NCBI RefSeq assembly: GCF_057098645.1
Contig: NZ_CM169472.1
Length of the DNA: 64,000 bases
Direction: 5' to 3' (one strand)
This document shows positions 1-15,250 of this stretch, piece by piece. Position 1 is the first letter of the stretch. Each line of letters opens with the position of its first letter. Below the pieces are notes generated by a model. That model did no database searches, had not been told where the DNA came from, and was given only the letters and a program-made list of their open reading frames with translations. The translations under genes were made by a program, and so were the position numbers.

Positions 1-2268
1 ATGGCCGTTAAAGCCTCCGGGCGTTTTGTCCCTCCGTCAGCATTTGCCGCAGGCACCGGTGAGACGTTTACCGGTGCTTATGCATGGAACGCGCCACGCG
101 AGGCCGTCGGGCGCGAAAGACCCCTTACACGTGACGAGATGCGTCAGGTGCAAGGTGTTTTATCCACGATTAATCGCCTGCCTTACTTTTTGCGCTCGCT
201 GTTTACTTCACGCTATGACTACATCCGGCGCAATAAAAGCCCGGTGCACGGGTTTTATTTCCTCACATCCACTTTTCAGCGCCGTTTATGGCCGCGTATT
301 GAGCGCGTGAATCAGCGCCATGAAATGAACACCGACGCGTCGTTGCTGTTTCTGGCAGAGCGTGACCATTATGCGCGTCTGCCGGGGATGAATGACAAGG
401 AGCTGAAAAAGTTTGCCGCCCGTATCTCATCGCAGCTTTTCATGATGTATGAGGAACTCTGCGATGCATGGGTTGATGCACATGGCGAGAAAGAATCGCT
501 GTTTACAGATGAGGCGCAGGCGCATCTGTATGGTCATGTTGCTGGCGCTGCACGTGCTTTCAATATTTCCCCTCTCTACTGGAAAAAATACCGTAAAGGA
601 CAGATGACCACGAGGCAGGCATATTCTGCCATTGCCCGTCTGTTTAACGATGAGTGGTGGACTCATCAGCTTAAAGGCCAGCGTATGCGCTGGCATGAGG
701 CGTTACTGATTGCTGTCGGGGAGGTCAATAAAGACCGTTCTCCTTATGCCAGTAAACATGCCATTCGTGATGTGCGTGCACGCCGCCAGGCAAATCTGGA
801 ATTTCTTAAATCGTGTGACCTCGAAAACAGGGAAACCGGCGAGCGCATCGACCTTATCAGTAAGGTGATGGGCAGTATTTCTAATCCTGAAATTCGCCGG
901 ATGGAGCTGATGAACACCATCGCCGGTATTGAGCGTTACGCCGCCGCAGAGGGTGATGTGGGGATGTTTATCACTCTGACCGCGCCGTCAAAGTATCACC
1001 CGACACGTCAGGTCGGAAAAGGCGAAAGTAAAACCGTCCAGCTAAATCACGGCTGGAATGATGAGGCATTTAATCCAAAGGATGCGCAGCGTTATCTCTG
1101 CCGCATCTGGAGCCTGATGCGCACGGCATTCAAGGATAATGATTTACAGGTCTACGGTTTGCGAGTCGTCGAGCCACACCACGACGGAACGCCGCACTGG
1201 CATATGATGCTTTTTTGTAATCCACGCCAGCGTAACCAGATTATCGAAATCATGCGTCGCTATGCGCTCAAAGAGGATGGTGACGAAAGAGGAGCCGCGC
1301 GAAACCGTTTTCAGGCAAAACACCTTAACCGGGGCGGTGCTGCGGGATATATCGCGAAATACATCTCAAAAAACATCGATGGCTATGCACTGGATGGTCA
1401 GCTCGATAACGATACCGGCAGGCCGCTGAAAGACACTGCCGCGGCTGTTACCGCATGGGCGTCAACGTGGCGCATTCCGCAATTTAAAACGGTTGGCCTG
1501 CCGACAATGGGGGCTTACCGTGAACTACGCAAATTGCCTCGCGGCGTCAGCATTGCTGATGAGTTTGACGAACGCGTCGAGGCTGCACGCGCTGCCGCAG
1601 ACAGTGGTGATTTTGCGTTGTATATCAGCGCGCAGGGTGGGGCAAATGTTCCGCGCGATTGTCAGACTGTCAGGGTTGCCCGTAGTCCGTCGGATGAAGT
1701 TAACGAGTACGAGGAAGAAGTCGAGAGAGTGGTCGGCATTTACGCGCCGCATCTCGGCGCGCGTCATATTCATATCACCAGAACGACGGACTGGCGCATT
1801 GTTCCGAAAGTGCCGGTCGTTGAGCCTTTGACTTTAAAAAGCGGCATCGCCGCGCCTCGGAGTCCTGTCAATAACTGTGGAAAGCTCACCGGTGGTGATA
1901 CTTCGTTACCGGCTCCCACACCTTCTGAGCACGCCGCAGCAGTGCTTAATCTGGTTGATGACGGTGTTATCGAATGGAATGACCCGGAGGTCGTGAGGGC
2001 GCTCAGAAGCGCATTAAAACACGACCTGAGAAGACCAAACCGTCAGCAAAGAAACGGAAGCCCGTTAAAACCACATGAAATTGCACCATCGGCCAGACTG
2101 ACCCGGTCTGAACGATTGCAAATCACCCGTATCCGTGTTGACCTTGCTCAGAACGGTATCAGGCCGCAGCGATGGGAGCTTGAGGCGTTGGCGCGCGGGG
2201 CAACAGTAATTTATGAAGGTGAGCGGTTTAGTTATGCTGTAAAAGACGATTGGGTGATGTTTTCTTAA
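1..2268 (+). CDS. A: P2 gpA-like replication initiation endonuclease (rolling-circle nickase); ORF starts at window base 1 so the true 5' end may lie upstream
   Basis: 755-aa ORF with HUH-type motif HWHMMLF and tyrosine pair YIAKYISK; synteny A-cos-Q-P as in P2. Confidence 0.9.
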   Translation: MAVKASGRFVPPSAFAAGTGETFTGAYAWNAPREAVGRERPLTRDEMRQVQGVLSTINRLPYFLRSLFTSRYDYIRRNKSPVHGFYFLTSTFQRRLWPRIERVNQRHEMNTDASLLFLAERDHYARLPGMNDKELKKFAARISSQLFMMYEELCDAWVDAHGEKESLFTDEAQAHLYGHVAGAARAFNISPLYWKKYRKGQMTTRQAYSAIARLFNDEWWTHQLKGQRMRWHEALLIAVGEVNKDRSPYASKHAIRDVRARRQANLEFLKSCDLENRETGERIDLISKVMGSISNPEIRRMELMNTIAGIERYAAAEGDVGMFITLTAPSKYHPTRQVGKGESKTVQLNHGWNDEAFNPKDAQRYLCRIWSLMRTAFKDNDLQVYGLRVVEPHHDGTPHWHMMLFCNPRQRNQIIEIMRRYALKEDGDERGAARNRFQAKHLNRGGAAGYIAKYISKNIDGYALDGQLDNDTGRPLKDTAAAVTAWASTWRIPQFKTVGLPTMGAYRELRKLPRGVSIADEFDERVEAARAAADSGDFALYISAQGGANVPRDCQTVRVARSPSDEVNEYEEEVERVVGIYAPHLGARHIHITRTTDWRIVPKVPVVEPLTLKSGIAAPRSPVNNCGKLTGGDTSLPAPTPSEHAAAVLNLVDDGVIEWNDPEVVRALRSALKHDLRRPNRQQRNGSPLKPHEIAPSARLTRSERLQITRIRVDLAQNGIRPQRWELEALARGATVIYEGERFSYAVKDDWVMFS
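1852..1871 (+). other. candidate phage replication origin (A-protein nick region) inside gene A
   Basis: GCGCCTCGGAGTCCTGTCAA in the 3' third of gene A resembles my recollection of the P2 ori nick region; memory-based. Confidence 0.3.
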
Positions 2269-2351
2269 ACTGATGGCATCATGATACATTAACAAATCTG
2301 AAGCAATACTTTAGTAGTCGTGCATTAATAACTTATAAGGAATTATTATCG

Positions 2352-3674
2352 ATGAGTGCGTTAAGGGATGAAGTATCTATGAAGGTTGCGTTCTCTAATG
2401 GCATGATAAACAAATTATGCAAAAGTTTTTTTTATAGTCATGGTAAGGAGCAGCCTTGTATTCAAGTCGGTAAAGCATTAGAAGATTTTGTTTTTTGGCT
2501 TGCATATAATGATGAGGAGATTGCAAAATGTGCTAGTAGGTTATTAAAAGCATATGGCCCCCAATTAGGTATAAGTAACCTTCATAATGCGAAAAGATTA
2601 TTGTTAGGTTTTTGTTCTGAAGCCTTCAATCGCATTGATGCTGATTTTTTGTCGCTTAATCCTGATAAGATTTGTGTTGATGATATTATAACGCAAGTTC
2701 ATAGAAAAAATCTTAGTGAGATGTTTAAGTGTTATATACTTTCACGAATAAAATCCTGTCCATATATTTATAATCTTGGGTGTGCTGGCTTTGATGGGAA
2801 GCTTGAGCTTAGAGAAAATTTATTTTTATATGGCCCGGGGCTAGGGGTGGAATTACTTTCTGATATTAAAGACAAAACTGACATCAAGGTTCCTGTTGAT
2901 TTTTATGATGATGAATATATGCGGCATAAACCAATTGGGAAATATTTTCGACAGTCAAAATCCTGCTTGGTGGTGGCATATGCTTCATCAGAGGATAAAG
3001 CGGTGAAAATGTTTGATAGTTTGTTTGGAGCTTTATGTCTTGCAGTTGATAATCCTTTTGCGATTAATCGAGTTGCTGTTAATAATCTAGTTGAGTCTTT
3101 TGGTGTCGGGAAATATCATGAAAGTGAGTTTCGGGTGAATATTCCGTCTGTAAATAATTTAAATATAACGGATTCAACCTTGGCGATACTTACAAAAATA
3201 CTTTCATCACCTGATAAAAGGATGTTGTCTGCTCTTTCCTTTATAGCGCACGGGTGGAGAGATGACAAACGTGAAAGGTTTTTGAATCAATTTATAGCAT
3301 TGGATGCTATGTATGGAACCAATAATGGTAATAAAAATTCAATTATTGGCGGTGTTTGCAGAGATGCGGCGAAAATTATTGATATTGATTCAAAAATAGG
3401 AATAATCTATGAGCTTAGGTGTAAGTTTGTTCATGGAGATATTTCATCGTTATCTGATAATGATAGCTATCGAAAGTTTATTGATAGCTATGGCGTGGAC
3501 CCTATTGTTTCTCTTTTTGAAATTCTTAAAGAATGCGTCCTTAATTATAATGGTACTTACAAAACGCCAAAAGATGTTGGAAAGGCAGATAGGTCTATTT
3601 GCGTTCCTGCTGAGTTGCTTCCAGCGGTTGAGAGGATGATAGCGGAATACAGTGGAGTTAAAAAAACAAACTAA
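2352..3674 (+). CDS. hypothetical protein; AT-rich cargo gene at the tin/old position of P2; candidate anti-phage defence protein with C-terminal Rx4H (HEPN-like) motif
   Basis: 440-aa ORF, visibly AT-rich and Lys/Ile/Asn-rich unlike flanking phage genes; motif R356-CKFV-H361-GD; sits between gene A and cos. Confidence 0.75.
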   Translation: MSALRDEVSMKVAFSNGMINKLCKSFFYSHGKEQPCIQVGKALEDFVFWLAYNDEEIAKCASRLLKAYGPQLGISNLHNAKRLLLGFCSEAFNRIDADFLSLNPDKICVDDIITQVHRKNLSEMFKCYILSRIKSCPYIYNLGCAGFDGKLELRENLFLYGPGLGVELLSDIKDKTDIKVPVDFYDDEYMRHKPIGKYFRQSKSCLVVAYASSEDKAVKMFDSLFGALCLAVDNPFAINRVAVNNLVESFGVGKYHESEFRVNIPSVNNLNITDSTLAILTKILSSPDKRMLSALSFIAHGWRDDKRERFLNQFIALDAMYGTNNGNKNSIIGGVCRDAAKIIDIDSKIGIIYELRCKFVHGDISSLSDNDSYRKFIDSYGVDPIVSLFEILKECVLNYNGTYKTPKDVGKADRSICVPAELLPAVERMIAEYSGVKKTN

Positions 3675-3815
3675 AGATGTTCTTTTTAGCCTCGCCTGCA
3701 TTAGGTGCATAAATTTGCATTCATTTTCAAATATATCTTTTGACAGCGAGCACCAGAACAGGCGCTTGCCGGGGGGATGATGCACCTGCATTAAAACCGC
3801 CCCATGAAGCGGGCG

Positions 3816-3834
3816 GGCGAGGCGGGGAAAGCAC
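3816..3834. other. cos: cos site (19-nt cohesive-end sequence of P2-type phages)
   Basis: GGCGAGGCGGGGAAAGCAC matches the remembered P2/186 cohesive-end sequence and lies immediately upstream of Q as expected. Confidence 0.6.
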
Positions 3835-4003: not shown

Positions 4004-5038
4004 TCAGCCGTTGTCAGTGTCCAGTGAGTAGTTTTTAAAGCGGATGACCTCCTGACCGAGCCAGCCGTTTATCTCGCGGATCCTGTCCTGTAGCGGGATA
4101 AGCTCATTGCGGACAAAGACCTTTACCACTTTCTCAATATCACCCAGCGACCCGACGTTCTCCGGCTTGCCGCCCATCAACTGAAAGGGGATGCGGTGCG
4201 CGTCCAGCAGGTCAGCGGCGCTGGCTTTTTTGATATTAAAAAAATCGTCCTTCGTTGCCACTTCACTGAGCGGGATAATTTTAATGCCGTCGGCTTTCCC
4301 CTGCGGGGCATAGAGAAACAGGTTTTTAAAGTTGTTGCGGCCTTTCGACTTGACCATGTTTTCGCGAAGCATTTCGATATCGTTGCGATCCTGCACGGCA
4401 TCGGTGACGTACATGATATATCCGGCATGAGCGCCGTTTTCGTAATACTTGCGGCGGAACAGCGTGGCCGACTCATTCAGCCAGGCAGAATTAAGGGCGC
4501 TGAGATATTCCGGCAGGCCGTACAGCTCCTGATTAATATCCGGCTCCAGCAGGTGAAACACGGAGCCGGGCGCGAAGGCTGTCGGCTCGTTGAAGGACGG
4601 CACCCACCAGTAAACATCCTCCTCCACGCCACGGCGGGTATATTTTGCCGGTGAGGTTTCCAGTCTGATGACCTTACCGGTGGTGCTGTAACGCTTTTCC
4701 AGAAACGCATTACCGAACACCAGAAAATCCAGCACAAAGCGGCTGAAATCCTGCTGGGAAAGCCACGGGTGCGGAATAAACGTTGAAGCCAGAATATTAC
4801 GTTTGACGTAAATCGGTGAGCTGTGATGTACGGCAGCACGCAGGCTTTTTGCCAGACCGGTAAAGCTGACCGGTGGCTCATACCATCTGCCGTTACTGAT
4901 GCACTCGACGTAATCCAGAATGTCACGGCGGTCGAGTACCGGCACCGGTTCACCAAAGGTGAATGCCTCCATTTTCGGGGCGCTGGCGGTCATTTTTTTT
5001 GCCGCAGGTTGCGGTGTTTTCCCTTTTTTCTTGCTCAT
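4004..5038 (-). CDS. Q: portal protein (P2 gpQ-like)
   Basis: 344-aa ORF, same length as P2 Q; position and divergent QP/ONML arrangement. Confidence 0.93.
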   Translation of the reverse strand: MSKKKGKTPQPAAKKMTASAPKMEAFTFGEPVPVLDRRDILDYVECISNGRWYEPPVSFTGLAKSLRAAVHHSSPIYVKRNILASTFIPHPWLSQQDFSRFVLDFLVFGNAFLEKRYSTTGKVIRLETSPAKYTRRGVEEDVYWWVPSFNEPTAFAPGSVFHLLEPDINQELYGLPEYLSALNSAWLNESATLFRRKYYENGAHAGYIMYVTDAVQDRNDIEMLRENMVKSKGRNNFKNLFLYAPQGKADGIKIIPLSEVATKDDFFNIKKASAADLLDAHRIPFQLMGGKPENVGSLGDIEKVVKVFVRNELIPLQDRIREINGWLGQEVIRFKNYSLDTDNG

Positions 5039-12291: not shown

Positions 12292-12721
12292 TGCCGTCAC
12301 GGTGCTGAAAACCAGCCCCGAGATGCTGCGGATATTCGTGGATAACGGGAGTATTGCCTCCACACTGGCGACGTCACTGTCATTCGAAAAGCGTTACACG
12401 CTCAATGTCATTGTGACCGATTTTACCGATGATTTTGACCTGCTCATCGTGCCGGTGCTGGCGTGGCTGCGGGAAAATCAGCCCGACATCATGACCACCG
12501 ACGAAGGTCAGAAAAAGGGCTTCACGTTTTATGCAGACATCAACAATGACAGCAGCTTTGATATCAGCATCAGCCTGATGCTGACCGAGCGCACGCTGGT
12601 CAGTGAGGTGGACGGCGCACTGCATGTGAAGAATATCCCGGAACCCCCGCCGCCGGAGCCGGTCACCCGCCCGATGGAGCTGTATATCAATGGCGAACTG
12701 GTGAGCAAGTGGGATGAATGA
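12254..12721 (+). CDS. R: tail completion protein (P2 gpR-like)
   Basis: 155-aa ORF, same length as P2 R; synteny. Confidence 0.88.
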   Translation: MLKPDSLRRALTDAVTVLKTSPEMLRIFVDNGSIASTLATSLSFEKRYTLNVIVTDFTDDFDLLIVPVLAWLRENQPDIMTTDEGQKKGFTFYADINNDSSFDISISLMLTERTLVSEVDGALHVKNIPEPPPPEPVTRPMELYINGELVSKWDE

Positions 12722-13163
12722 GTTTAAGCGTTTTGAAGACCGGCTGACCGGAATGATTGAGTCGCTGTCACCGTCAGGGCGTCGGCGACTGGCGGTAGAT
12801 ATTGCGAAGAAACTGCGCCAGCGCCAGCAGCAGCGAATTAAATTACAAAAAGGCCCGGATGGTACGCCGTATGTACCGAGAAAAAACCAACCAGTGCGAA
12901 ATAAGAAAGGCCGGATAAAGCGGGAAATGTTTGTGAAATTACGCACTAACCGGTTTATGAAAGCAACAGCTAGCGAGAGTGCGGCGGTGGTGGAGTTTAC
13001 TGGTAAGGTTGAGTGTATTGCGAGAGTACATCAATTTGGGTTGGCTGATAAGCCTAGTTACAACAGTAAGGCTGTGGTTTATCCTGTTCGTATACTTATG
13101 GGAATCTCAGAGCGTGATACGAAATTTGTTGAAGAAGTTATTATTCGCTACCTATCTCATTAG
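12714..13163 (+). CDS. S: tail completion protein (P2 gpS-like); 3' two-thirds is AT-rich and looks mosaic
   Basis: 149-aa ORF starting MNEFKRFEDRLTG; synteny; composition shift near 12830. Confidence 0.85.
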   Translation: MNEFKRFEDRLTGMIESLSPSGRRRLAVDIAKKLRQRQQQRIKLQKGPDGTPYVPRKNQPVRNKKGRIKREMFVKLRTNRFMKATASESAAVVEFTGKVECIARVHQFGLADKPSYNSKAVVYPVRILMGISERDTKFVEEVIIRYLSH

Positions 13164-13263: not shown

Positions 13264-14508
13264 CTAAATCCAGCGAAGGTAGAATAGTAAGTAAGGATCT
13301 CTGATGTCTAATACATCGCTTTCTTGATCCCACTCGATAATACTGCTATTTGCAGCATCGTTGGCAATAGCAGTTGAGTGCTGACATGCACTGGTTATAC
13401 TAGAACCGCTTGGGCTATCGCCATGACATAACGAGGTCACTCGAGATACTAAGTCAGAATAACGAAATGTCAGCGTCGGAGGATTAGAAGCAATGGCTTT
13501 TAATAAAAAGACATAAACATCGCCTTGCCAGCCATCTTTTGATATATATGATTTTCTATCAGAACCACGCACTTTAGGTCCTTCGCGCATTTTATCCACA
13601 ATCGTGCTGTAATCTGCTGACTGAAGTGTACGTTTGCACACTCTTTGCAATGTGGCAATATCTTTTTGATATTTTATTGAAGTATCAGAAGTCTCTCTGA
13701 CATTCATTTCAAAACAAGAGTTTAAGCATAAATATTGCATTAGTTGTGGTGAGCCTGCGGACTCTTTTACTAACTCACTTATAACTTCATCAGAGGCATC
13801 TATATTGAGTAGTTTGAATCCTTTCTGAGCAATAATTTTTAAGGTTGATTCATCCCAATAATCAAAATCAATATTAAATATCCGGCCTCGTAAGTCAGAG
13901 TTACCCCGAAGAACATCATCAGAATGATATGGCACTGATGCACAAATAAATTTGCAGCCATTAGCTATGGCATCTTTTATTTGTCGTGATAGTTCGGCTT
14001 GAGCTTCTTTAGCAATATAGTGAAAATCATCGATAAAGATAACATAATCTGTGTTTGCGATTTCTCGCTTCATTAGTTGAAAGAGATCTATCGCAAATGA
14101 TTCTGAGGTTTGATCTGCTGTACTATAACCAGCGGATGCAGACCCTTTAAGACTACCTTTTGCTAAAATTACACCAGCTTGGGCAGATAATTCTCCTGTA
14201 CTTGAAAATGATGAGGTGCCAGTTTTACTTTGAACTTGGGTTACTGGTACACCAAGTATGTCGAAAACGCGCTTCCATAAATCATTAGCAGATTGAACCC
14301 CTGCTCCAGTTACTTCGATTAGCCTCTGGGTTCCAAGTACTTTCTTAACAAAGACAGTTTTTCCTGATTTTGATGGGCCAGAGATAGAAATCAGCATGGT
14401 GCCCATCTCAAGTGTATCGATTAACTGTTGCTGTTTAGATACTAGGTGATCCTCAACCAGTGTGTGGTTGGGATAACCGCCTGGGATAAAAACCTCTGTC
14501 GCCTTCAT
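13264..14508 (-). CDS. hypothetical P-loop NTPase; AT-rich cargo gene between S and V; candidate anti-phage defence ATPase
   Basis: 414-aa ORF; Walker A GPSKSGKT (aa 44-51, nt 14356..14379); Walker B YVIFIDD (aa 155-161); Ser/Thr/Gly-rich insert between them; opposite strand and lower GC than the phage backbone. Confidence 0.8.
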   Translation of the reverse strand: MKATEVFIPGGYPNHTLVEDHLVSKQQQLIDTLEMGTMLISISGPSKSGKTVFVKKVLGTQRLIEVTGAGVQSANDLWKRVFDILGVPVTQVQSKTGTSSFSSTGELSAQAGVILAKGSLKGSASAGYSTADQTSESFAIDLFQLMKREIANTDYVIFIDDFHYIAKEAQAELSRQIKDAIANGCKFICASVPYHSDDVLRGNSDLRGRIFNIDFDYWDESTLKIIAQKGFKLLNIDASDEVISELVKESAGSPQLMQYLCLNSCFEMNVRETSDTSIKYQKDIATLQRVCKRTLQSADYSTIVDKMREGPKVRGSDRKSYISKDGWQGDVYVFLLKAIASNPPTLTFRYSDLVSRVTSLCHGDSPSGSSITSACQHSTAIANDAANSSIIEWDQESDVLDIRDPYLLFYLRWI

Positions 14509-14614: not shown

Positions 14615-15250
14615 ATGAATATAAATCACTCATTACAAGAGCTTGCGCGTGCACTGCGCAACATGATCCGCACCGGTATTATCGTCGAAACCGACCTTAA
14701 CGCCGGTCGCTGCCGTGTGCAGACCGGCGGCATGTGCACCGACTGGCTTCAGTGGCTGACCCATCGTGCCGGACGTTCGCGCACATGGTGGGCACCTTCC
14801 GTGGGGGAACAGGTGCTGATTCTGGCTGTGGGCGGTGAACTCGACACGGCGTTCGTTCTGCCGGGGATTTATTCCGGCGATAACCCCGCGCCGTCTGCGT
14901 CGGCGGATGCCCTGCATATCCGTTTCCCTGACGGGGCGGTGATTGAGTATGAACCCGAAACCAGTTCACTGACGGTAAGCGGAATTAAAACGGCCAGCGT
15001 GACGGCTTCTGATTTTGTTACTGCCACGGTGCCGGTGGTCACGGTGAAAGCATCAACCCGCGTCACCCTGGACACACCGGAGGTGGTCTGCACCAACAGG
15101 CTGATTACCGGCACGCTGGAAGTGCAGAAGGGCGGGACGATGCGCGGCAACATTGAACACACCGGCGGTGAACTCTCATCAAACGGTAAGGTACTGCATA
15201 CCCATAAACACCCCGGCGACAGTGGCGGCACAACAGGGGGACCTCTATGA
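14615..15250 (+). CDS. V: baseplate spike (P2 gpV-like)
   Basis: 211-aa ORF, same length as P2 V; synteny. Confidence 0.92.
   Translation: MNINHSLQELARALRNMIRTGIIVETDLNAGRCRVQTGGMCTDWLQWLTHRAGRSRTWWAPSVGEQVLILAVGGELDTAFVLPGIYSGDNPAPSASADALHIRFPDGAVIEYEPETSSLTVSGIKTASVTASDFVTATVPVVTVKASTRVTLDTPEVVCTNRLITGTLEVQKGGTMRGNIEHTGGELSSNGKVLHTHKHPGDSGGTTGGPL

What the first reader, a model, noticed from the sequence alone, without database searches (positions are those of the whole stretch)
2269..3815. Uncharacterised 440-aa AT-rich cargo gene at the tin/old position (candidate defence system)
Between the gene A stop and the cos site, where P2 carries tin and old and where P2-like prophages are known to exchange anti-phage systems, there is a single 440-aa ORF (2352..3674). 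Its DNA is conspicuously AT-rich and its protein Lys/Ile/Asn/Phe-rich, unlike the flanking phage genes. I see no Walker, nuclease or polymerase signature I can name; the only motif is R356-x4-H361-G-D near the C-terminus (nt 3417..3434), which fits a HEPN-type RNase as found in many abortive-infection proteins. It is not recognisably Tin or Old, so it may be a new single-gene system.
Basis: partly seen in the sequence, partly recalled or inferred. Interest (0 to 1): 0.85.

Follow-up and report, generated by a model that had tools for sequence, protein, structure and literature searches.

The report
Untested HEPN RNase defence gene in P2 prophage
The AT-rich gene between the P2 replication gene and the cos site encodes a real, conserved 440-aa protein whose C-terminal part is an ApeA-type HEPN RNase domain. 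It is very probably a single-gene anti-phage system, but databases and a 2022 hotspot survey had already listed it as such, so it is an untested member of a known kind.

Summary
One 440-aa ORF (2352..3674, +) lies between P2 gene A (1..2268) and the cos cohesive end (3816..3834). Its GC is 35% (GC3 27%) against 53% in gene A.

Relatives sit at the same gpA/portal hotspot, at a second P2 cargo site, and in islands beside CBASS, Kiwa and a type IV restriction enzyme. dN/dS is about 0.17-0.27. I found no partner gene or RNA.

It is not new as an object. RefSeq calls it "HEPN domain-containing protein" (WP_063267205.1, in 45 of 5426 complete E. coli genomes). Rousset et al. 2022 list it as "HEPN_Apea" in their P2 hotspot table but did not test it. 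PADLOC's ApeA model and the current Pfam do not detect it. It is 440 aa, against about 600 aa for validated ApeA.

Best reading: a short-form ApeA-like, infection-activated RNase. Defence activity, trigger and RNA target remain untested.

The parts
1..2268 (+). P2 gene A (replication endonuclease), the left border of the hotspot. Context only.
   Evidence: 755-aa ORF. Annotated 'replication endonuclease' in RefSeq. Phage_GPA Pfam family in homologous loci.
2269..2351 (+). 83-nt AT-rich leader upstream of the cargo gene, with a purine-rich Shine-Dalgarno-like AAGGAA at 2337-2342. No consensus sigma-70 promoter was called.
   Evidence: Sequence read. The leader is conserved in the 62%-identical Enterobacter-type alleles. 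No + strand promoter hit upstream of the ORF.
2352..3674 (+). Cargo gene for a 440-aa, 49.4-kDa short-form ApeA-like HEPN protein (RefSeq WP_063267205.1 family; PHROG 23812).
2352..3206 (+). N-terminal mixed alpha/beta domain of about 285 aa. I infer it is the sensor or regulatory domain. It has no match among solved structures.
3207..3551 (+). C-terminal HEPN domain, residues about 286-400, all-helical.
3303..3305 (+). D318 codon, an invariant acidic residue in the RERFLNQFIALDA helix of the HEPN domain.
   Evidence: Invariant in A1 and A2 and at least 90% conserved in A3.
3417..3437 (+). Catalytic-type HEPN motif R356-CKFV-H361-G362.
   Evidence: Only Rx4-6H match in the protein. R356 and H361 are invariant in two sets of 45 and 55 divergent relatives.
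3675..3815 (.). Spacer between the stop codon and cos. It holds no credible ORF, repeat or RNA family. P2 similarity resumes at about 3781.
3816..3834 (+). P2-type cos cohesive-end sequence GGCGAGGCGGGGAAAGCAC, the right border of the hotspot.
   Evidence: Exact string found. The same sequence appears in cos-proximal P4 clones in Rousset Table S2.
4004..5038 (-). gpQ portal gene. Context only.

Best explanation
The gene is a horizontally acquired, self-contained immunity cassette carried by a P2-like prophage at its cos-proximal cargo hotspot. Its product is a short-form member of the ApeA/BMEI1217 branch of the HEPN superfamily.

Shown here:
- It is a real gene under purifying selection.
- It has a C-terminal HEPN fold, with R356, H361 and D318 conserved across the whole family.
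- The N-terminal domain of about 285 aa is shared with hundreds of 400-450-aa relatives.
- No partner gene or RNA is present.
- It recurs in phage cargo sites and in defence islands.

Inferred by analogy with ApeA, DARNA/PD-T7-3, HepS and PrrC:
- The protein is made in the lysogen and held inactive.
- Two HEPN domains pair to form a composite R/H active site.
- The N-terminal domain, or a pocket between it and the HEPN domain, senses a cue of infection by another phage and releases the RNase.
- The RNase cuts RNA, most likely tRNA anticodon loops. Translation then stops and the infection aborts, which protects the lysogen population and the resident P2 prophage.
For: HEPN fold and motif:
- There is a single Rx4-6H motif, invariant in about 100 divergent relatives.

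Family and architecture:
- Foldseek gives full-length hits (E 1e-20 to 1e-9, TM 0.5-0.65) to 'Apea-like HEPN domain-containing' proteins of 400-440 aa.
- P0107, which the family profile reaches at E 2e-8, is named 'Apea-like HEPN' by JGI.
- Rousset's table labels this accession HEPN_Apea, and RefSeq labels it HEPN.
- Anantharaman 2013 describes a roughly 300-aa ApeA-NTD1 fused to the HEPN domain.

Defence context:
- All 14 IMG/VR loci, plus the Enterobacter and E. coli loci, place the gene between gpA and the portal.
- The Serratia allele is at the gpS-gpV cargo site.
- The Vibrio allele lies beside CBASS (SAVED plus DncV-like), a RES-domain gene and an integrase.
- The Pseudoalteromonas allele is in an integrase island with Schlafen-like and helicase genes.
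- A 19%-identical relative lies between Kiwa and a type IV restriction enzyme at an smpB island.

Other points:
- It is a stand-alone gene: no repeats, no Rfam family, no partner ORF, and the neighbouring HNH genes are unrelated to each other.
- It is functional and mobile: dN/dS 0.17-0.27 and GC 34-40% whatever the host.
- The hotspot is experimentally known to hold defence genes (old/tin and others).
- Mechanistic precedents are the ApeA tRNA anticodon nuclease, DARNA and HepS.
Against: - No phage-challenge, toxicity or RNase data exist for this protein or for any 400-450-aa relative that I could find. The one 'minimal' 467-aa ApeA homologue tried by Drobysheva et al. could not be transformed.
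- PADLOC's ApeA model and all other PADLOC models miss it and 20 relatives.
- The current Pfam HEPN_Apea model misses it and about 100 relatives. The link to ApeA proper therefore rests on fold, architecture and older annotations.
- No convincing own promoter was found, so expression in the lysogen is unproven.
- Five of the eight additional P2-hotspot candidates cloned by Rousset et al. gave no protection, including another 'putative HEPN'. Position alone is therefore not proof.
Confidence: 0.62

Rival explanations
1. Direct, non-abortive nuclease. The HEPN RNase cleaves invader RNA, such as ssRNA-phage genomes or phage transcripts, and stops replication without killing the cell. Ec1ApeA is reported to do this against Qubevirus phages.
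For: There is a precedent in the same superfamily branch. All the HEPN evidence above applies equally.
Against: Nothing in the sequence separates this reading from the abortive route. Most single-protein HEPN defences characterised so far are anticodon nucleases acting through abortive infection.
Confidence: 0.15
2. Addiction or stabilisation toxin. The HEPN RNase is the toxin of a toxin-antitoxin module that stabilises the prophage, with an antitoxin I have not recognised (a small protein, an RNA, or a host factor). It would not primarily be an anti-phage sensor.
For: Many HEPN proteins are TA toxins, for example HepT/MntA and AbiF with its RNA antitoxin. A minimal ApeA homologue could not be transformed, presumably because it is toxic.
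Against: There are no tandem repeats, no Rfam hit and no conserved adjacent ORF. Neighbours differ between hosts. The large N-terminal domain fits a built-in regulator.
Confidence: 0.1
3. A phage-benefit or regulatory HEPN protein that is not immunity. It could be an RNA- or nucleotide-binding factor used in P2's own lytic cycle, or a lysogenic-conversion function unrelated to phages.
For: It lies 83 nt downstream of gene A with no terminator between them, so it could be transcribed with the early operon. About a quarter of P2 hotspots carry non-defence cargo such as partition systems or toxins.
Against: Only 45 of 5426 complete E. coli genomes carry it, so it is dispensable for P2. Relatives occur outside phages in defence islands. 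The catalytic R/H pair is strictly conserved.
Confidence: 0.08
4. Decaying or inert hitch-hiking DNA with no current function.
For: It has foreign composition and low prevalence. One IMG/VR copy (L018) gives a split match.
Against: dN/dS is 0.17-0.27. The 440-codon frame is intact in 35% GC DNA. All 45 E. coli genomes carrying the gene match its full length at 95% nucleotide identity or more (41 at 99% or more). Motif residues are invariant.
Confidence: 0.03

Closest known systems
ApeA (Gao et al. 2020 single-gene defence; Ec1-Ec4ApeA of Juozapaitis et al. 2026, bioRxiv 10.64898/2026.01.26.701840; Drobysheva et al. 2026, bioRxiv 10.64898/2026.03.20.713152)
   Same: - It is one polypeptide with an N-terminal non-catalytic region and a C-terminal HEPN domain bearing a single Rx4H motif (RNKITH in Ec1ApeA, RCKFVH here).
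- It needs no partner gene.
- It is carried on mobile elements and in hotspots.
- Older Pfam-based annotation puts both under HEPN_Apea.
   Different: - This protein is 440 aa; ApeA is about 580-600 aa.
- ApeA is described as predominantly alpha-helical with N-terminal, Mid and split-HEPN domains. This model has a mixed alpha/beta N-terminal half of about 285 aa and a compact HEPN domain.
- PADLOC's ApeA profile gives no hit.
- Doughnut oligomers, the deoxydinucleotide pocket and tRNA cleavage are untested here.
ApeA/BMEI1217 HEPN family with ApeA-NTD1 (Anantharaman et al. 2013, PMC3710099), seen in UniProt and AFDB as 'Apea-like HEPN domain-containing protein' of 400-440 aa
   Same: - The architecture matches: an N-terminal domain of about 300 aa followed by a HEPN domain with a conserved Rx4-6H motif.
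- There is full-length structural similarity and HMM-level similarity.
- Members are scattered across Proteobacteria, Firmicutes and Cyanobacteria.
   Different: - Sequence identity is only 11-20%.
- The current Pfam model does not reach this gammaproteobacterial and P2-borne clade.
- I could find no tested function for any member of this short form.
Other single-protein HEPN abortive-infection nucleases: DARNA/PD-T7-3, HepS (Gifsy-1 prophage) and PrrC/RloC
   Same: - These are prophage- or island-borne HEPN RNases kept inactive until a phage cue appears.
- They act by cleaving tRNA anticodon loops.
   Different: - DARNA has its HEPN domain at the N-terminus.
- HepS is a small protein with its motif at R100/H105.
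- PrrC and RloC carry ABC ATPase domains.
- None shows sequence similarity to this protein. PADLOC, which should contain the PD-T7-3 and PD-T4-2 models (from my own knowledge of its contents), gives no significant hit.
P2 Old and Tin, the reference cargo at this locus
   Same: - They occupy the same position between gene A and cos.
- They have the same presumed role, excluding other phages from the lysogen.
   Different: - Old is an ABC-ATPase plus TOPRIM nuclease, and Tin is an unrelated small protein.
- No similarity to this protein was found.

Membership tests
HEPN superfamily | Helical HEPN fold | tested here: met
HEPN superfamily | Conserved Rx4-6H motif | tested here: met
   R356-CKFV-H361 is the only such motif. 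R356 is invariant and H361 at least 90% conserved in A1. Both are invariant in A2 (45 sequences) and A3 (55 sequences).
HEPN superfamily | Dimerisation into a composite active site, and metal-independent RNase activity | not testable with these tools
   This needs a multimer prediction with coordinates, or biochemistry.
ApeA defence system (Gao 2020, as modelled in PADLOC) | Match to the family's sequence profile | tested here: not met
   The PADLOC scan gives no ApeA hit for the window protein at E<=1, or for 20 distant relatives at E<=0.01 or E<=0.1.
ApeA defence system (Gao 2020, as modelled in PADLOC) | Protein of about 600 aa with N-terminal, Mid and split HEPN_ApeA domains, predominantly alpha-helical | tested here: not met
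   This protein is 440 aa. Its N-terminal 285 aa contain about 10 strands mixed with helices, unlike the description. No ApeA coordinates were available for a direct superposition.
ApeA defence system (Gao 2020, as modelled in PADLOC) | Pfam HEPN_Apea (PF18739) domain | tested here: inconclusive
   The current PF18739.6 gives no hit at E<=10 for the window protein, and only one weak hit (E 0.09) among about 100 relatives. Rousset's table, JGI (P0107) and the UniProt names of structural neighbours all use that label.
ApeA defence system (Gao 2020, as modelled in PADLOC) | HEPN-dependent protection against phages | not testable with these tools
   This needs plaque assays with wild type and an R356A mutant.
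ApeA/BMEI1217 short-form family (ApeA-NTD1 plus HEPN; Anantharaman 2013) | N-terminal domain of about 300 aa fused to a C-terminal HEPN domain, in proteins of about 400-450 aa | tested here: met
   Domain layout of the model. The 230 profile hits are mostly 400-480 aa with the HEPN domain at the C-terminus. Family description.
ApeA/BMEI1217 short-form family (ApeA-NTD1 plus HEPN; Anantharaman 2013) | Full-length similarity to recognised members | tested here: met
   In Foldseek against AFDB50, ranks 4-50 are mostly 'Apea-like HEPN domain-containing protein', with about 400-460 aligned columns, TM 0.5-0.65 and E down to 4e-20.
P2 Old (ABC ATPase plus TOPRIM) and Tin | Sequence or domain similarity to Old or Tin | tested here: not met
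   No PADLOC, NCBIfam or Pfam hit of that kind. P2 DNA matches only the cos flank.
HEPN toxin-antitoxin modules (HepT/MntA, AbiF-type with RNA antitoxin) | Adjacent cognate antitoxin gene or repeat-RNA antitoxin | tested here: not met
   No tandem repeats, no Rfam family and no conserved neighbouring ORF. Neighbours differ between hosts.

The most novel reading that the evidence does not exclude
The 400-450-aa 'short-form' Apea-like HEPN proteins, of which this P2 cargo gene is the enterobacterial representative, may be a distinct single-gene defence family. PADLOC does not detect them, and I could not run DefenseFinder. Their alpha/beta N-terminal domain would sense a trigger different from the deoxydinucleotides or RNA structure sensed by the long ApeA proteins. 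The resident P2 phage would have to evade that trigger.
Probability: 0.3. Interest if true: 0.5.

Novelty: new member of a known kind. Interest (0 to 1): 0.4.

Why it matters
If it protects, it adds a compact stand-alone HEPN immunity gene of 1.3 kb to the P2 hotspot catalogue. It would also give the large, untested short-form Apea-like HEPN family (hundreds of clusters across phyla) its first functional assignment.

PADLOC does not flag it, so it is an example of defence content that such profile-based tools can miss. It also offers a tractable case for two questions. How does a prophage-borne RNase tell competing phages from its own carrier? And how far do sensing domains diverge around one effector fold? 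Otherwise it is a routine confirmation of guilt by association at a well-known hotspot.

Tried and rejected
Sequence searches that found nothing:
- Pfam on the protein and on about 100 relatives, NCBIfam, and PADLOC on the protein, 20 relatives and several neighbours. No family was assigned.
- PDB sequence searches with the single protein and with the profiles A1 and A2.
- Foldseek against PDB. There was no ApeA or DARNA structure to superpose.
- tblastn against isolated phages and plasmids gave no match. The gene is known only from prophages, IMG/VR contigs and chromosomal islands.

Ideas tested and dropped:
- A conserved two-gene HEPN+HNH system. An HNH gene follows the homologue in Vibrio and in a distant relative. 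The two HNH proteins are unrelated, and one is a type IV restriction enzyme.
- Identity with the 'Putative HEPN' (pFR103) that Rousset et al. tested without effect. It is a different protein.
- HepS and DARNA as relatives. Their architectures differ.
- An RNA antitoxin or small partner ORF.

Calls that gave little:
- The hhalign comparison of A1 with A3 is not independent, because A3 contains the query. I disregard it.
- A word-indexed search with alignment A2 added almost nothing.
- I could not obtain an ApeA sequence or structure for a direct profile or structure comparison.
- No convincing sigma-70 promoter could be called upstream.

Full report
**1. What is there**

The window opens with a 755-aa P2 gpA-type replication endonuclease (1..2268). 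An 83-nt AT-rich leader follows, then one 440-aa ORF (2352..3674, +). After 141 nt comes the P2 cohesive-end sequence GGCGAGGCGGGGAAAGCAC (3816..3834). The portal and terminase genes follow on the minus strand.

It is the only Rx4-6H motif in the protein.

**2. It is a real, selected and mobile gene**

A word-indexed search found 26 clusters at 45-98% identity. They come from Escherichia, Salmonella, Citrobacter, Enterobacter, Serratia, Vibrio, Shewanella, Pseudoalteromonas and Idiomarina.

- dN/dS is 0.17 against the Enterobacter and Serratia alleles and 0.27 between the Vibrio and Pseudoalteromonas alleles.
- The gene has 34-40% GC whatever the host background, including about 51-58% GC flanks in Serratia and Enterobacter.
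- It is present in 45 of 5426 complete E. coli genomes, always chromosomal.
- It is on 14 IMG/VR viral contigs, most of them 27-42 kb (P2-sized). It is in no isolated phage or plasmid record.

**3. What the protein is**

Direct profile searches are silent. Pfam, NCBIfam and PADLOC give nothing. PHROGs returns a family of unknown function, phrog_23812.

An AlphaFold2 model built on the 27-sequence alignment has mean pLDDT 79 and pTM 0.66. It shows a mixed alpha/beta N-terminal half (about residues 1-285) and an all-helical C-terminal part.

Foldseek against AFDB50 gives full-length matches to 400-440-aa proteins, most of them named 'Apea-like HEPN domain-containing protein'. These span about 400-460 aligned columns with TM 0.5-0.65 and E from 4e-20 to 1e-9. 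They come from alpha-, beta- and gamma-proteobacteria, Firmicutes and cyanobacteria.

An exhaustive HMM search with the family profile finds 230 representatives.
- Most are 400-480 aa and match through their C-terminal ~110 residues.
- A few (P0037, P0038, P0041, P0044, P0045) match over nearly the full length.
- In two independent sets of 45 and 55 such relatives (13-21% identical to the query in nearly every case), R356 and H361 are invariant. G362, D318 and P384 are invariant or nearly so.

**4. Relation to ApeA**

Anantharaman et al. (2013) defined an ApeA/BMEI1217 HEPN family and an 'ApeA-NTD1' domain of about 300 aa fused to it. The ApeA defence system of Gao et al. is a protein of about 600 aa.
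- According to a 2026 preprint, ApeA is an abortive tRNA anticodon nuclease.
- It forms decameric or dodecameric doughnuts.
- It is switched on through a pocket between the N-terminal and HEPN domains. The ligand is a 5'-phosphorylated deoxydinucleotide for Ec2ApeA.
- A second preprint shows Ec1ApeA cleaving ssRNA-phage genomes without killing the cell. It also mentions a 467-aa 'minimal' homologue that could not be transformed.

The window protein shares the logic of a single protein with an N-terminal region and a C-terminal HEPN domain. It differs in four respects:
- It is 440 aa.
- Its N-terminal half is alpha/beta rather than mostly helical.
- PADLOC's ApeA model misses it.
- The current Pfam HEPN_Apea model misses it and about 100 relatives.

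The HEPN_Apea label nevertheless appears in several places:
- for this very accession in Rousset's table;
- for a profile-reachable relative in JGI, P0107;
- for its structural neighbours in UniProt.

I therefore file it in the short-form ApeA/BMEI1217 family. I treat membership of the validated long-form ApeA clade as not shown.

**5. Context**

- In E. coli, Enterobacter and all 14 IMG/VR loci, the gene lies between gpA and the portal. Sometimes further cargo follows it (L026, L027).
- In a Serratia P2-like prophage it sits at a different cargo site, between gpV and gpS.
- In Vibrio it lies next to a SAVED/DncV-like CBASS pair, a RES-domain gene, an HNH gene and an integrase.
- In Pseudoalteromonas it is in an integrase-bounded element with Schlafen-like and helicase genes.
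- A 19%-identical relative lies at an smpB island between Kiwa and a type IV restriction enzyme.
- No neighbour is conserved. The HNH genes that follow two relatives are unrelated to each other.
- In the window there are no repeats, no Rfam families and no plausible partner ORFs.

The gpA-cos locus is an experimentally established defence hotspot. It holds old/tin, a DUF4238 system, a three-gene system, DprA-PRTase and a TIR system. Five of the eight extra candidates cloned from it by Rousset et al. gave no protection in their assays. One of those was a different 'putative HEPN' protein.

**6. Mechanism**

Shown: a stand-alone, conserved HEPN protein with an intact R/H/D core and a large conserved N-terminal domain, carried as phage and island cargo.

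Inferred: it is produced in the lysogen and held inactive. HEPN domains dimerise into a composite active site. A cue of foreign-phage infection, sensed by the N-terminal domain or an interdomain pocket, releases RNase activity. RNA cleavage, most likely in tRNA anticodon loops as in ApeA, DARNA, HepS and PrrC, arrests translation and aborts the infection.

My probabilities are about 0.9 for a HEPN RNase-type protein, about 0.6-0.65 for anti-phage defence, and about 0.35 for tRNA as the target.

Rivals are direct cleavage of invader RNA (0.15), a toxin-antitoxin or addiction role (0.10), a non-immune phage function (0.08) and inert DNA (0.03).

**7. Novelty and verdict**

The object is already annotated. 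RefSeq calls it 'HEPN domain-containing protein'. It has a PHROG family. Rousset et al. 2022 tabulate it as a one-gene HEPN_Apea arrangement at this hotspot. I found no paper that tests it or any short-form relative.

It is best described as an untested new member of a known kind, namely single-protein HEPN defence nucleases of the ApeA lineage. It has a possibly distinct sensor domain. Interest is moderate: it is a sound candidate for a straightforward experiment, not a surprise.

Noticed in passing
window 13264-14508 (- strand): A second AT-rich cargo gene (GC about 38%) lies between gpS (12714-13163) and gpV (14615-15250). It encodes a 414-aa protein with a Walker A motif (GPSKSGKT) and matches the PADLOC defence candidate PDC-S59 (E 2.8e-31). 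This is the same cargo site that holds the HEPN homologue in a Serratia P2-like prophage (L009).
   Followed up: partly
window 1 (start of gene A); RefSeq records such as NZ_CP135653.1, NZ_AP040168.1, NZ_CP084055.1: The window starts exactly at the ATG of P2 gene A. Several complete E. coli chromosomes have the HEPN gene at identical coordinates, 2352..3674. Those assemblies were evidently rotated to begin at this prophage replication gene rather than at dnaA. No record in the collection is 100% identical to the window (best 99.5%).
   Followed up: no
window 2269-2351; L005 7925-8000; L017, L019, L027 equivalents: The 83-nt leader upstream of the gene stays recognisably conserved between alleles whose proteins are only about 62% identical. 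A -35-like TTAACA/TTAGCA is present, but I could not pair it with a clear -10 box. This may be a regulatory element.
   Followed up: partly
L003 10775-11371, L004 4082-4678, L008 9379-9975: In marine gammaproteobacteria (Vibrio, Pseudoalteromonas), a small 198-aa Phage_integrase-family gene lies just downstream of the HEPN homologue. In Vibrio an HNH_5 gene sits in between. This suggests a small recombinase-borne cassette.
   Followed up: no
L027 4154-6883; L026: In some Enterobacter-type P2-like contigs the same hotspot holds about 2.7 kb of extra cargo after the HEPN gene. It comprises ORFs of 138, 221 and 201 aa, the 221-aa one with a PD-(D/E)xK-like motif.
   Followed up: no
window protein and relatives P0027-P0175: There is annotation drift. 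Older Pfam-based sources (Rousset 2022, JGI, UniProt/AFDB names, RefSeq) call these proteins HEPN_Apea or HEPN. The current PF18739.6 does not score the window protein at E<=10, and scores only one of about 100 relatives, weakly.
   Followed up: partly
L018 5966-7284: One IMG/VR copy (97% identical) gives a tblastn match of only 287 aa in its best segment. The copy may carry a frameshift or other disruption.
   Followed up: no
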